The notes under the pieces are model-generated. The model worked only from the letters and a program-made list of their open reading frames with translations, was not told the origin of the DNA and made no database searches. 64,000 nt of DNA from Shigella phage KNP5, in the sequence record KX452698; one strand, given 5' to 3'. Each line of letters begins with the position of its first letter. Position 1 is the first letter of the stretch. This document shows positions 1,274 to 5,290 of this stretch, in pieces. The position numbers and the translations under genes are program-made.

Positions 1274-2112
1274 TAGAATGCTCCTTGGAAAATATTATCA
1301 CCACAAGTAGGTCTATTATACAAATACTCTATGCCACCAGGTTTAATATAGTTCCATGTCTGAAATGGATGTGTCTGATATGGATGATATAGATGATTAT
1401 AAGGATTAAATCCAGGCGTTCTCCAGGTAGTGTTCCAAGGAAAAGAATCGTTTTTAACCATCTTCTCAATTAAATCTTTTATAGCTTTTTCACTATCAAA
1501 ACTTTCTTTATTTTCCTTCGGTGAAAAAAGCTTATTTTCTACATCATTCCATGTATAAACTCGCTGAGCAGTTTTTGGAATATTGTCACGCTCTCCTCGA
1601 GCCATCCAATAAACAGGAACATTTAATATTTCACTCGCGTGGTCGCAGTGGTGAGCGAGATCGTCAATATAACAAATTACGTTATATTTCTCTTTTGCCT
1701 TTTTAAACAACTCTTCTTTTGAAGAATCATGACCACACATCATTACTTCTGAGAAGGCACCAGGAAAAAGAGCATTCAAATTAAATTGACGATTCAGCAG
1801 AGCGTCAATAGAATCACCCAATGCTGTAACAGCCACAAAATTATAATCTTCTTTTAGTTTGTTAATTACACACAGGGCATCTTTATACGGAGACAAGTAA
1901 CGAATAAAATCTGATCGATTGTATTTTTCAATTAACTTGACGCCAAGTTCTTCATCACAATTAAAGAGTTTACCTGGAGAAATAAATTTCTCATCTTGGA
2001 TCATTTTTAAAATATGTTCTAACGGAAGATTATATTTCTGAGCAAAATAAGGAAGTCCTGATTGCCAGCTTAAACATACTCCATCAATATCAGTTAAAAT
2101 AGTAGGCTTCAT
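1273..2112 (-). CDS. 30.2-like protein with HAD-type N-terminal motif
   Basis: 279-aa ORF; N-terminus MKPTILTDIDGVCL resembles HAD-superfamily motif I (DxDG); abuts neighbours without gaps. Confidence 0.6.
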   Translation of the reverse strand: MKPTILTDIDGVCLSWQSGLPYFAQKYNLPLEHILKMIQDEKFISPGKLFNCDEELGVKLIEKYNRSDFIRYLSPYKDALCVINKLKEDYNFVAVTALGDSIDALLNRQFNLNALFPGAFSEVMMCGHDSSKEELFKKAKEKYNVICYIDDLAHHCDHASEILNVPVYWMARGERDNIPKTAQRVYTWNDVENKLFSPKENKESFDSEKAIKDLIEKMVKNDSFPWNTTWRTPGFNPYNHLYHPYQTHPFQTWNYIKPGGIEYLYNRPTCGDNIFQGAF

Positions 2113-3950: not shown

Positions 3951-3979
3951 AAAATAAAAAAGGACTCCCGAAGGAGTCC
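3951..3979 (-). terminator. rho-independent terminator (GGACTCC-CGAA-GGAGTCC + T-run on minus strand)
   Basis: 7-bp perfect stem with CGAA loop followed on the minus strand by TTTTTATTTTC; downstream of ORF ending at 3985. Confidence 0.7.
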
Positions 3980-3984
3980 TCAAC

Positions 3985-4203
3985 TTATGCTTTCTGCTTA
4001 CCAAAACGAGAAGCATCATCTCGAAGAACCGCACGTGCTCGGCGCATGATCTTCTCAACAGTTTGATTGATACGAGAGTTCGACCCACGCTTGTAACCAG
4101 CGCGTTTAGAATCACCAACTTTCTTTTCAACTGCTTTCTTTGCTTTAGCTTGTTTTGCCATTATAAATTCTCTTTTAAATGAAAATGCAGGACTTATTGG
4201 CAT
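3985..4203 (-). CDS. small basic protein (alternative ATG at 4161 gives 58 aa)
   Basis: Lys/Arg-rich ORF MAKQAKAKKAVEKK...; followed by terminator. Confidence 0.5.
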   Translation of the reverse strand: MPISPAFSFKREFIMAKQAKAKKAVEKKVGDSKRAGYKRGSNSRINQTVEKIMRRARAVLRDDASRFGKQKA

Positions 4204-4558
4204 TGCCTGCGAAAGCCCTCAAGGGGTACTTAGGTTTTGAATATTTACCGACAGGATAACCATAAACCTCGTCAACATACCTTATAGCTCTTATCTGTTG
4301 CACACCGTTAGCTTAAAGGTTCCGGGTTCGATTTCTCGAGGATAAGATATATACTGATGGATATATAGGCCTTGAGGCGTACTCCCGATTAGCCATCACC
4401 TCGGGGTAGCATGCACTTGCCGCTATAAGAATAACATTCAAGAGGTACACCGTAAAACTGCCGGGGTCTTAAAACTATAATGATTCGCAAATCATTAATC
4501 AGACAGTTCGACGGCTCCTCGTTTTAACTTCACACTAAGGCAGTGACTCTCCAATAAA

Positions 4559-4807
4559 TTACTTCAGTGTTACCACAAAGTGACGAACTGCTTTTCGTGC
4601 AGCAGAAGCCAGAGGCTTAGCATATTTAAGTTCATCTTTTTCCTGAAGCTCAGCGGCTAATGCAGTTTGAGCAGGATTCAGATGTTTGAAATAACGCAGG
4701 ATTTCAAGAGCTTCGGCTTCAACATCAATAGATGCGCCATAGTTTTCGTGACCATTATTCCATGCGTTTCGTTGCAGTTCAAGAGCGTGTTGTAATTGTT
4801 TAATCAT
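4559..4807 (-). CDS. rIII: rIII lysis-inhibition accessory protein
   Basis: 82-aa ORF MIKQLQHALELQRNAWNNGHENYGASIDVEAEALEILRYFKH..., matches T4 RIII in length and sequence as recalled; position before gene 31. Confidence 0.8.
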   Translation of the reverse strand: MIKQLQHALELQRNAWNNGHENYGASIDVEAEALEILRYFKHLNPAQTALAAELQEKDELKYAKPLASAARKAVRHFVVTLK

Positions 4808-4954: not shown

Positions 4955-5290
4955 TCACTTATAAAGACACGGAATAGCTTTATAGTGACAGGTAACGAAT
5001 TTTTGTTTAATTTCTTTTGGCTGCTTAAGTCCCAAGGCTACAAAAGGATGCGGAACGTTTCGAATTTGACCAACTGGAAGAGAAGTCAAATCACCAACTT
5101 CGCAGAAACCTTCAGGAACATCAGGACCAACAGAGTGAACTACACACAGTTCAGGAACTTCACCTTGAACACGTTTACCGATAATAAGTCCTGATTCTGT
5201 AACTTCTTCATCACCGGCTTGTGCAGGTTCAGAAACTAAAATAACATATTCACCGACAGCACGAATTGGTAGCTGTTGTACTTCAGACAT
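4955..5290 (-). CDS. 31: gp31 co-chaperonin (GroES analogue)
   Basis: 111-aa [33 protein letters not shown]... identical in length and near-identical to T4 gp31 as recalled. Confidence 0.9.

What the first reader, a model, noticed from the sequence alone, without database searches (positions are those of the whole stretch)
4204..4558. 355-bp ORF-free, GC-elevated island between the 30.x cluster and rIII
In a genome where neighbouring genes overlap by 1-4 nt, this stretch has no ORF longer than 27 codons on either strand. It is visibly more G+C-rich than flanking coding DNA and carries several short complementary segments (GCCCTCAAGGGG; CCTCGGGG; CACTAAGGCAGTG) plus a tRNA T-arm-like GGTTCGATT. 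I could not fold a complete tRNA cloverleaf. It could encode a structured small RNA, be a decayed remnant of an inserted element, or be a regulatory or origin region.
Basis: seen in the sequence. Interest (0 to 1): 0.45.

Follow-up and report, generated by a model that had tools for sequence, protein, structure and literature searches.

The report
Undescribed structured RNAs beside phage rIII
The gap between two genes of this T4-like phage is not junk or a dead gene: it encodes several folded RNAs, and the central 149-base one matches no RNA family in Rfam, is kept almost unchanged in about 400 related phage genomes, and has no known function.

Summary
The island is real. It has 43.4% G+C against 35.8% for the window, which puts it in the 98th percentile, and it holds no conserved ORF. 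It is a mosaic of RNA structure modules on the minus strand, the strand of rIII and 30.9.

Module A (4281-4429) is absent from T4. It is 93-94% identical across phage genera whose flanking genes are only 63-81% identical. In 26 distinct copies, 25 of its 40 base pairs show compensatory changes, and a loop-loop kissing helix is maintained in six sequence versions. ARAGORN finds no tRNA, and Rfam finds nothing even at E<=10. The core motif gave no hit in 185,579 bacterial and archaeal genomes, and BLAST found nothing in E. coli genomes.

Module B (4439-4521) and the pseudoknot module C (4229-4273) are also present in T4. They recur inside tRNA gene clusters of unrelated myoviruses, next to tRNAs and a homologue of the T4 stable RNA rnaD.

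In Pseudotevenvirus, module A sits at the end of the uvsY operon, facing a convergent gene. That argues against a leader or riboswitch role.

My best reading is a set of cassette-like structured RNAs, co-transcribed with rIII and probably released as stable RNAs that act in trans. The structure is shown. The processing and the function are inferred.

The parts
4530..4546 (-). h0: small hairpin UCAC-UGCCUUAGU-GUGA, directly after the rIII stop codon (4559-4561). It is preceded by GGAG.
   Evidence: It is conserved in T4, Mosigvirus, fHe-Yen9-01 and Phapecoctavirus, and follows module A in JC221. The stem covaries between UCAC/GUGA and UCGC/GCGA (read by eye).
4439..4521 (-). Module B: an 83-nt elongated hairpin. 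Helices GAGG/CCUC, GCCGU/ACGGU and AACUGUC/GGCAGUU lead to the apical hairpin AAUGAUU-UGCG-AAUCAUU, with a conserved asymmetric internal loop. It is also present in T4.
   Evidence: RNAalifold on 11 distinct copies gives 25 pairs, 5 of them with compensatory double changes. The MFE z-score is -3.57 on the minus strand against -2.57 on the plus strand. Copies lie inside tRNA clusters of phiWec190 (Phapecoctavirus) and A5-4 (Vequintavirinae).
4281..4429 (-). Module A: a 149-nt multi-helix RNA that is absent from T4. The closing helix P1 (4422-4429 with 4281-4288) stacks on P6 (4341-4347 with 4289-4295). Hairpins P3, P4 and P5 branch off between P1 and P6. P6, P7 (4328-4339) and P8 (within 4303-4327) form a three-way junction. 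The invariant stretch GCUAACGGUGUGCAACAG lies at 4295-4312.
   Evidence: In a CM alignment of 26 distinct copies, 98.6% of cells are paired and 25 of 40 pairs have double changes. No shuffle in 500 reached this, and slid controls gave 25-41% paired. An independent MAFFT plus RNAalifold run gave 20 of 40. The single-sequence MFE reproduces the fold. Identity between genera is 93-94%.
4393..4398 (-). Module A kissing loop, 5' partner: UGAUGG in the P3 apical loop. It pairs with CCAUCA at 4355-4360.
   Evidence: All 10 distinct loop combinations keep 6-7 contiguous Watson-Crick pairs, in six sequence versions. Loops taken from different classes give only 2-5.
4355..4360 (-). Module A kissing loop, 3' partner: CCAUCA in the P5 loop.
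4229..4273 (-). Module C: an H-type pseudoknot. S1 is GAC(G)AGG (4267-4273) with CCUGUC (4250-4255). S2 is UAUGGU (4259-4264) with ACCUAA (4230-4235). Loop 3 is conserved and A-rich (CGUUAAAUA..CAAAA). It is also present in T4.
   Evidence: nhmmer found 43 distinct copies. On 22 of them, 83.5% of cells are paired against 30-47% when slid. The covariation score is 0.446 against 0.187 in shuffles (0 of 500 reached it), and each helix has 4 pairs with double changes.
4215..4227 (-). h1: hairpin (GUA)CCCC-UUGA-GGGC(UU). In other genera it follows module A directly, and in COW86c it precedes it.
   Evidence: It recurs next to the modules in all genera examined. There is no U-tract on the RNA strand. 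The terminator-like hit is on the plus strand only. It is the only h1-like site in the window.
4187..4210 (-). h2: hairpin GCAGG-CAAUGCCAAUAAGU-CCUGC in the 30.9 leader. Its loop contains the ATG (4203) that T4-style annotation uses as the 30.9 start.
   Evidence: Read from the sequence. The conserved 30.9 protein starts at MAKQ (ATG at 4161), as annotated in PEi20, Merlin, PS2 and mogra.

Best explanation
SHOWN: The rIII/30.9 gap is non-coding. It encodes, on the minus strand, a string of independently folding, evolutionarily maintained RNA structures in the order h0 - B - A - C - h1 - h2.

Module A (149 nt) is a compact RNA with eight predicted helices, six of which covary, and a covarying kissing loop between the P3 and P5 hairpins. 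It has long invariant junction sequences and matches no Rfam family.

The modules behave as cassettes. T4 has B-C. This phage and Dhakavirus CLBP2 have B-A-C. Dhakavirus C6 and Mosigvirus mogra have B-D-C. In Jiaodavirus and Kanagawavirus module C lies upstream of A, followed by h1. Pseudotevenvirus carries A after uvsY.-2. B, C and D also sit between tRNA genes in Vequintavirinae and Phapecoctavirus phages, next to a homologue of the T4 stable RNA rnaD.

INFERRED: There is no promoter or terminator inside the gap, so the RNAs are made as part of the 31-rIII-30.9 transcript, which ends at the strong terminator at 3960-3981. I propose that host or phage RNases cut them out as discrete, nuclease-resistant small RNAs, in the way RNAC and RNAD are cut from the T4 tRNA precursor. 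I further propose that module A works as RNA in trans. The near-invariance of even its unpaired nucleotides across phages of Enterobacterales suggests that it binds, sequesters or mimics a substrate of a conserved host or phage macromolecule. The partner and the biological effect are unknown.
For: - Covariation of A.
- Kissing loop.
- Covariation of B. Covariation of C.
- A is the most conserved sequence locally, 93-94% against 63-81% for gp31, rIII and 30.9.
- No frame is open in all copies.
- The A indel relative to T4 has clean boundaries, and the CM finds no copy in T4.
- The cassette at the same site is swapped for A or D.
- B and C lie in a 675-nt ORF-free gap of phage A5-4, followed by a tRNA, tRNA-Met and an rnaD homologue. 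h0, B and D lie between tRNA-Gln and tRNA-Pro in phiWec190.
- A is followed by a convergent gene in JC221 and Olmo.
- A always has the orientation of the flanking genes.
- No sigma-70-like promoter or intrinsic terminator lies on the RNA strand inside the gap, and a strong terminator follows 30.9.
- The family is restricted to T4-like phages of Enterobacterales, about 400 records. It is absent from bacterial genomes.
Against: - I had no transcript data, so neither processing nor accumulation of a discrete RNA is shown.
- In T-even phages the modules are not flanked by tRNAs, so the automatic release by RNase P and 3' trimming that would apply in tRNA clusters does not apply here.
- Module A itself was never found in a tRNA cluster. 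Only B, C and D were.
- T4 grows well without A, so A is accessory.
- The thermodynamic z-score of A alone is weak (-1.55).
- Helices P2 and P4 of A do not covary and may be wrong.
- The high identity between genera could partly reflect recent horizontal transfer rather than constraint alone.
Confidence: 0.55

Rival explanations
1. The modules are cis-acting mRNA architecture. They would be structured spacers inside the 31-rIII-30.9 polycistronic mRNA that set its processing, protect the upstream rIII/31 segment from 3'-to-5' exonucleases, or insulate or tune translation of 30.9. They would never act as free RNAs.
For: - The modules are always co-oriented with the flanking genes and internal to an operon.
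- They have no promoter or terminator of their own.
- GGAG motifs, the RegB recognition sequence (PMC3014915), flank h0 and lie within B.
- h1, h2 and C lie in the 30.9 leader here and in T4.
- In JC221 and Olmo, A lies at the 3' end of the uvsY operon, where a 3' protective structure would make sense.
Against: - A simple stabiliser needs only a stable hairpin. It does not need a 149-nt fold with a kissing loop and more than 50 invariant nucleotides held at 93-94% identity across genera.
- The same modules sit between tRNA genes, where no mRNA needs protecting.
- The order of the modules and their neighbouring genes vary.
Confidence: 0.28
2. Module A is a ligand-sensing riboswitch aptamer that controls the downstream gene 30.9.
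For: It has a compact junction fold with a loop-loop contact, as in purine-type aptamers, and highly conserved junction nucleotides. In most genera it lies upstream of 30.9, with a hairpin (h1) after it.
Against: - There was no match to any riboswitch in Rfam, even at E<=10.
- h1 has no U-tract and does not overlap the ribosome-binding site, so no expression platform is evident.
- In this window the 45-nt module C separates A from h1.
- In JC221 and Olmo, A follows uvsY.-2 and faces a convergent gene, so there is nothing downstream to regulate.
- T4 expresses 30.9 without A.
Confidence: 0.06
3. Module A is a self-cleaving or otherwise catalytic RNA that processes the transcript.
For: Invariant nucleotides concentrate in the junctions of a compact, tertiary-stabilised fold. 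A processing activity would explain how a module without flanking tRNAs is released.
Against: There was no match to any ribozyme family in Rfam. No strictly conserved linker that could hold a cleavage site was recognised. The idea rests on analogy alone.
Confidence: 0.07
4. The island is a decayed protein gene or the scar of a mobile element, such as a homing-endonuclease cassette, or a DNA-level site such as a replication origin.
For: A is an insertion relative to T4. Some annotators called small ORFs here.
Against: - The called ORFs differ between genomes, and no frame is open in all copies.
- Substitutions are compensatory for base pairs rather than following codon periodicity.
- Conservation exceeds that of the neighbouring genes.
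- G-U pairs make the fold strand-specific.
- The tandem-like composition expected of origins was not seen, and no known T4 origin maps here (the last point is from my own knowledge).
Confidence: 0.03

Closest known systems
T4 RNAC and RNAD (species 1 and 2 small stable RNAs of the tRNA cluster)
   Same: These are phage-encoded, structured small RNAs of about 120-140 nt with no known function (PMC3014915, PMC9697503). They are made as part of a longer precursor. Modules B and C lie 18 nt upstream of a tRNA and about 200 nt upstream of an rnaD homologue in phage A5-4.
   Different: I saw no sequence similarity by eye between A, B or C and rnaC or rnaD. The CM for A and the HMM for C gave no hit in the T4 tRNA region. 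In T-even phages the modules lie outside the tRNA cluster and have no CCA-like or T-arm-like ends. Stability was not tested.
GOLLD and ROOL 'ornate' RNAs (PMC12286853)
   Same: They are orphan, highly structured RNAs of unknown function. From my own knowledge, they are typically phage-associated and often lie next to tRNA genes.
   Different: They are 4-5 times larger and form homo-oligomers. There was no Rfam match to them, and their taxonomic range is different.
PeSL promoter/stem-loop cassettes of T4-type phages (PMC2839356, PMC4122927)
   Same: They are short conserved intergenic cassettes at the boundaries of indels and module swaps in T4-like genomes. The A/D/none polymorphism between B and C looks like cassette shuffling.
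   Different: A PeSL is a simple stem-loop plus an early (or Mot) promoter. No promoter-like site lies on the RNA strand in this gap. The modules here are complex covarying folds of 45-149 nt.
Junction aptamers with loop-loop contacts (purine riboswitch type)
   Same: Two hairpins emerging from a junction are locked together by Watson-Crick loop-loop pairing, and the junction nucleotides are conserved.
   Different: This RNA has a different number of helices and different conserved sequences. It has no Rfam match, no expression platform and no constant downstream gene.
H-type pseudoknots with an A-rich loop 3 (for example the T4 gene 32 operator pseudoknot and the preQ1 class)
   Same: Module C has the same topology, S1-5', S2-5', S1-3', A-rich loop, S2-3', and both stems covary.
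   Different: There is no sequence or CM similarity to any of them. Module C is not tied to a particular start codon and also occurs in tRNA clusters.

Membership tests
tRNA / tmRNA | Cloverleaf (or tRNA-like domain plus tag) recognised by ARAGORN or Rfam RF00005 / tmRNA models | tested here: not met
   ARAGORN found 0 genes in the window. Rfam found none at gathering score or at E<=10. The GGTTCGATT motif is on the non-RNA strand. Local alignment of A to E. coli ssrA is at chance level (p=0.44).
Any Rfam 15 family (riboswitches, ribozymes, sRNAs, GOLLD, ROOL and others) | Covariance-model match | tested here: not met
   There were no matches for the whole window at gathering score, and none for 4050-4700 at E<=10 with permissive filters.
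Riboswitch | Aptamer consistently placed in the 5' leader of the gene(s) it regulates, coupled to an expression platform (a terminator or RBS-sequestering helix) | tested here: not met
   In JC221 and Olmo, A lies after uvsY.-2 and before a convergent gene. No terminator lies on the RNA strand in the gap. Module C intervenes between A and the 30.9 leader here.
Riboswitch | Specific ligand binding | not testable with these tools
   This needs in-line probing or ITC.
PeSL cassette | Stem-loop coupled to a sigma-70-like early (or Mot middle) promoter | tested here: not met
   The promoter scan found minus-strand sites only at 4782-4754 (inside rIII) and 3930-3902 (after 30.9), and none within 4162-4558. 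The definition is from PMC4122927.
Protein-coding gene or pseudogene | A reading frame conserved among homologues | tested here: not met
   The longest stop-free runs differ between copies and fall to 12-31 codons in fHe-Yen9-01, PS2 and Muldoon. Indels are not multiples of three.
T4 RNAC/RNAD-type stable RNA | Sequence or structure homology to rnaC or rnaD | tested here: not met
   I saw no similarity by eye. R1 and the C HMM gave no hit in the T4 tRNA region L033.
T4 RNAC/RNAD-type stable RNA | Excised from a longer precursor and accumulating as a discrete stable species | not testable with these tools
   The only evidence is context: B, C and D lie between tRNA genes in A5-4 and phiWec190.
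Intrinsic terminator | G+C-rich hairpin followed by a U-run on the transcribed strand | tested here: not met
   The only hit inside the gap (4215-4227) is on the plus strand. On the RNA strand, h1 is followed by CUUUCGCAGG. The real terminator is at 3981-3960.
Conserved structured RNA (generic) | Base pairs maintained by compensatory substitutions beyond shuffled and slid controls | tested here: met
   A: 25 of 40 pairs, 0 of 500 shuffles. C: covariation 0.446 against 0.187, 0 of 500. B: 5 of 25 pairs. Kissing loop: six versions.

The most novel reading that the evidence does not exclude
Module A is the founding member of a new class of phage-encoded, trans-acting structured RNA. It would be an RNA decoy, inhibitor or catalyst that targets a conserved component of Enterobacterales cells, or a host defence. 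Modules B and C, present in T4 itself, would be further unrecognised stable RNAs. Together they would give the T-even phages an RNA-based layer of host takeover that has been missed for decades.
Probability: 0.35. Interest if true: 0.85.

Novelty: new variant of a known kind. Interest (0 to 1): 0.7.

Why it matters
T4 and its relatives are the best-studied lytic phages and are mainstays of phage therapy cocktails. A 2010 review (PMC3014915) states that no riboswitch or trans-acting small RNA has been functionally characterised in T4, and that RNAC and RNAD remain without a role.

The sequence here gives a concrete, testable set of new RNA genes:
- A 149-nt fold with a proven tertiary contact, held nearly invariant in about 400 sequenced phages of Escherichia, Shigella, Klebsiella, Enterobacter, Yersinia, Serratia, Edwardsiella and Erwinia.
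- Two smaller folds present in T4 itself.

T4 lacks module A while close relatives carry it, which makes a ready natural knockout. Modules B, C and D are shared with tRNA clusters of unrelated myoviruses. That links them to the old, unsolved question of what the non-tRNA stable RNAs of phage tRNA regions do.

There are two practical consequences. Automatic annotation currently places spurious 'hypothetical proteins' over these RNAs. The T4-style start codon of 30.9 is probably wrong.

Tried and rejected
- **tRNA or tmRNA:** ARAGORN found 0 genes. My impression that A resembled tmRNA was at chance level.
- **Known RNA families:** Rfam found nothing at gathering score or at E<=10. Rfam also has no model for rnaC or rnaD.
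- **Host mimicry or a host origin:** there was no BLAST match in 5,426 E. coli genomes. The core pattern was absent from 185,579 bacterial and archaeal genomes. The metagenome scan returned only the same T4-like phage types.
- **Homology of A, B or C to T4 rnaC/rnaD:** none.
- **tRNA genes hidden in the rIII/30.9 gap of other T4-like phages:** none in 34 loci.
- **Extra copies of A in the window:** none.
- **h1 as a repeated genome-wide motif:** only one site in the window.
- **11-nt GAAA-tetraloop receptor (UAUGG/CCUAAG) in module C docking the P7 GAAA loop:** rejected. Homologues turn that segment into an ordinary covarying helix (S2), and the P7 loop is not conserved as GNRA.
- **A partner protein next door:** 30.9 is a very basic 58-aa protein but has no Pfam family, and its PHROG has unknown function. 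The small Cys-rich ORFs upstream of the modules in Olmo and A5-4 are not homologous.
- **PeSL cassettes:** no promoter is present.
- **Whole-gap thermodynamic stability:** not significant (z = -0.26 and +0.15). Energy-based screens would miss this region.
- **Literature:** eight full-text searches, including literal sequence strings, found no description of these elements. The Miller 2003 T4 genome review is not held in the library.

Full report
**What the window is.** Over 4204-4558 the window is 100% identical to Escherichia phage KNP1, and it is 97-99% identical to many other Tequatrovirus genomes. All genes in this stretch are on the minus strand: gp31 at 4955-5290, rIII at 4559-4807 and 30.9 at 3985-4203. 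A strong intrinsic terminator follows 30.9 at 3981-3960.

**Checking the observation.**
- The 355-bp stretch has 43.4% G+C against a window mean of 35.8%, which is the 98th percentile of all 355-nt windows.
- With ATG starts only, it has no ORF above 27 codons. With GTG and TTG starts there are minus-strand ORFs of 45, 42 and 33 aa.
- None of these ORFs is conserved. Among 26 homologues of the central part, no reading frame is open in all of them.
- The small 'hypothetical proteins' that some annotators placed here differ from genome to genome.
- ARAGORN finds no tRNA or tmRNA in the whole window.
- Rfam 15 finds nothing at gathering score for the whole window, and nothing at E<=10 for 4050-4700.
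It is simply the complement of helix P7 and its junction.

**T4 lacks the middle of the island.** T4 has only 202 bp between rIII and 30.9. Alignment shows a clean indel of about 150 nt. I call the inserted piece module A.

**Module A is unusually conserved.** BLAST of the island against 50,697 phage records hits 1,013 records. Query positions 85-219, the core of A, are 90-95% identical in Jiaodavirus (Klebsiella), Kanagawavirus (Edwardsiella) and Enterobacter phages, and 83-85% identical in Moonvirus and Serratia phage PS2. In all of these A sits in the same place, between rIII and 30.9. Between the same pairs of genomes, the gp31, rIII and 30.9 genes are only 63-81% identical at the DNA level, against 93-94% for A. 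About 400 records carry A.

**Module A is a structured RNA.**
- Divergent copies supply the variation needed to test the fold. These come from Yersinia phages JC221 and fHe-Yen9-01, Klebsiella phage Olmo, Escherichia phage EcS1 and Erwinia phage COW86c.
- A MAFFT alignment of 22 distinct sequences folded by RNAalifold gives 40 pairs, 20 of them with compensatory double changes.
- A covariance model built from that alignment aligns 26 distinct copies. In that alignment 98.6% of cells are paired and 25 of 40 pairs have double changes. No shuffle in 500 reaches any of the five measures. Sliding the partner column by 1-3 positions drops pairing to 25-41%.
- That alignment is fitted to the model, so it leans towards the structure. 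The independent MAFFT result agrees, and the single-sequence MFE fold of the window copy reproduces the same helices.

**Architecture of module A.**
- The closing helix P1 (CUUAUAGC/GCUAUAAG here, UAAAC/GUUUA in Jiaodavirus) stacks on P6.
- Hairpins P3, P4 and P5 emerge between the 5' strands of P1 and P6.
- P6 ends in a three-way junction with P7 (UCGA-GAAA-UCGA) and P8.
- P2 and P4 do not covary and are uncertain.
- The invariant segments are GGCAAG.GCAU, CCU before P5, ACC.GGA.CC and GCUAA.GGUGUGCAAC.

**A tertiary contact in module A.** The apical loop of P3 and the loop of P5 are complementary in every copy, although the sequences differ. The versions are CGAUGG/CCAUCG, UGAUGG/CCAUCA, CUAUGG/CCAUAG, CAAUGA/UCAUUG, UUGUAUU/AAUACAA and UGCAUU/AAUGCA. 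Matched loops always give 6-7 contiguous Watson-Crick pairs. Loops from different classes give 2-5. This is a covarying kissing loop, so A has a defined three-dimensional fold.

**Which strand is the RNA.**
- About 7% of paired cells are G-U (my count from the pair table). These would be A-C mismatches on the other strand.
- The fold scores better on the minus strand (z = -1.55 against -0.66).
- A always has the orientation of the surrounding genes, whichever genome it is in.

**The flanks are structured too.**
- Module B (4439-4521) is an 83-nt elongated hairpin that T4 also has. Eleven distinct copies give 25 pairs, 5 of them with double changes, and an MFE z-score of -3.57.
- Module C (4229-4273), also in T4, is an H-type pseudoknot with a conserved A-rich third loop. 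An HMM finds 43 distinct copies. On 22 of them the two interleaved helices are 83.5% paired against 30-47% when slid. The covariation score is 0.446 against 0.187 for shuffles (0 of 500 reached it), and each helix has four pairs with double changes.
- Small hairpins h0 (4530-4546), h1 (4215-4227) and h2 (4187-4210) complete the gap.

**The modules are cassettes.**

| Phage or group | Arrangement |
|---|---|
| T4 | B-C |
| This phage and Dhakavirus CLBP2 | B-A-C |
| Dhakavirus C6 and Mosigvirus mogra | B-D-C (D is a different hairpin-like module) |
| Jiaodavirus and Kanagawavirus | C upstream of A, then h1 |
| COW86c | h1-A-C |
| Pseudotevenvirus JC221 and Olmo | A after uvsY.-2, followed by uvsW.1 on the opposite strand |

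The Pseudotevenvirus arrangement means A is not a 5' leader there.

Twenty of the 47 rIII loci in IMG/VR carry A. The window has a single copy.

**The link to tRNA clusters.**
- In Phapecoctavirus phiWec190, h0, B and D lie between tRNA-Gln and tRNA-Pro, on the strand of the tRNAs.
- In the Vequintavirinae phage A5-4, a 675-nt ORF-free gap holds B, then C. Eighteen nucleotides later comes a tRNA (Rfam, 35.8 bits), then tRNA-Met, then a clear homologue of the T4 stable RNA rnaD.
- In those genomes, the enzymes that mature the flanking tRNAs would release the modules as separate RNAs. This is an inference.
- RNAC and RNAD have no known function (PMC3014915, PMC9697503).

**Distribution.** The core motif of A is absent from one genome each of 185,579 bacterial and archaeal species. 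The island has no BLAST match in 5,426 complete E. coli genomes. The metagenome scan returns only the same T4-like phage types. All hosts are Enterobacterales. The three loci from 220-233-kb T4-like genomes gave no hit.

**How it most likely works.**
- Shown: this is a set of selected RNA folds on the gene strand, internal to the transcription unit that ends at the terminator after 30.9. There is no promoter-like site or terminator on that strand inside the gap.
- Inferred: the RNAs are co-transcribed with rIII and then cut out as stable species, in the manner of the non-tRNA RNAs of phage tRNA clusters.
- Inferred: module A has a self-contained closing helix, a tertiary lock and near-invariant unpaired nucleotides. 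I take this to mean that it acts in trans by binding or mimicking the substrate of a conserved host or phage macromolecule.
- My confidence is about 0.95 that these are functional structured RNAs, and about 0.5 that they are free trans-acting RNAs.

**Rivals.**
- The main rival is a purely cis role in mRNA processing, stability or translation (0.28).
- A riboswitch is unlikely, because there is no constant downstream gene, no expression platform and no Rfam match.
- A ribozyme cannot be excluded.
- A decayed gene, a mobile-element scar or a DNA-level site is contradicted by the covariation and the conservation.

**Novelty.** I found no Rfam family and no paper describing these elements. The eight full-text searches included literal sequence strings. 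The kind of object is known: an orphan, phage-encoded structured RNA, as RNAC/RNAD and GOLLD/ROOL are. The families themselves appear to be new, and two of them are in T4 itself.

Noticed in passing
window 4161-4203 (minus strand): The T4-style 72-aa form of 30.9 starts at an ATG (4203) inside the loop of hairpin h2. The N-terminal extension MPISPAFSFKREFI is not conserved. Other genera annotate a protein of 58-59 aa that starts MAKQ (ATG at 4161). The long start is probably an annotation artefact, which would make the non-coding gap about 397 nt.
   Followed up: partly
window 3985-4161 (minus strand): 30.9 is a very basic 58-aa protein (MAKQAKAKKAVEKKVGDSKRAGYKRGSNSRINQTVEKIMRRARAVLRDDASRFGKQKA). 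It has no Pfam family and belongs to phrog_1427, of unknown function. Its composition would suit a nucleic-acid binder placed next to structured RNAs. Whether it co-occurs with the modules outside Straboviridae was not tested.
   Followed up: partly
L055 (Escherichia phage A5-4, OP744025.1) 1850-1945: This is a clear homologue of the T4 stable RNA rnaD (CGGGUCGCUCCCGAUAAGUCGUCGGACUGAUGUUCCCUGA...AUCACAGCAGAAACGGCGCACC) in a Vequintavirinae tRNA cluster, and it is unannotated. Rfam has no model for rnaC or rnaD.
   Followed up: partly
L055 1669-1747: This is a tRNA-like gene that ARAGORN missed and the record does not annotate. Rfam tRNA scores it 35.8 bits (gathering score 29). It has an unusually long insert between the D and T regions.
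   Followed up: no
L054 807-870, L056 826-890, L009 about 1440-1495 (minus strand): 'Module D' (CACGCGUCAGAAAAAGGUUAUCUGUCUAAGCCGUGG and relatives) occupies the same site between B and C that A occupies here. It also follows B in the phiWec190 tRNA cluster. Its structure was not analysed.
   Followed up: no
window 3960-3981 (minus strand): This is a textbook intrinsic terminator (GAGGACUCC-UUCG-GGAGUCCUU followed by UUUUUAUUUU) just after 30.9. It marks the end of the transcription unit that contains the RNA modules.
   Followed up: yes
phage database hits H52, H99 and others: Records named 'Campylobacter phage A145/B15' and some 'Vibrio' records carry T-even rIII/30.9 spacers at 90-97% identity. 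They are probably mislabelled or contaminated T4-like coliphage assemblies.
   Followed up: no
L030 1157-1339 and L055 1182-1355: The ORFs just upstream of the RNA modules in Olmo (uvsY.-2) and A5-4 both carry a CxCxxC ... C motif. BLASTP shows no significant homology between them (E=0.07 over 6 residues).
   Followed up: yes
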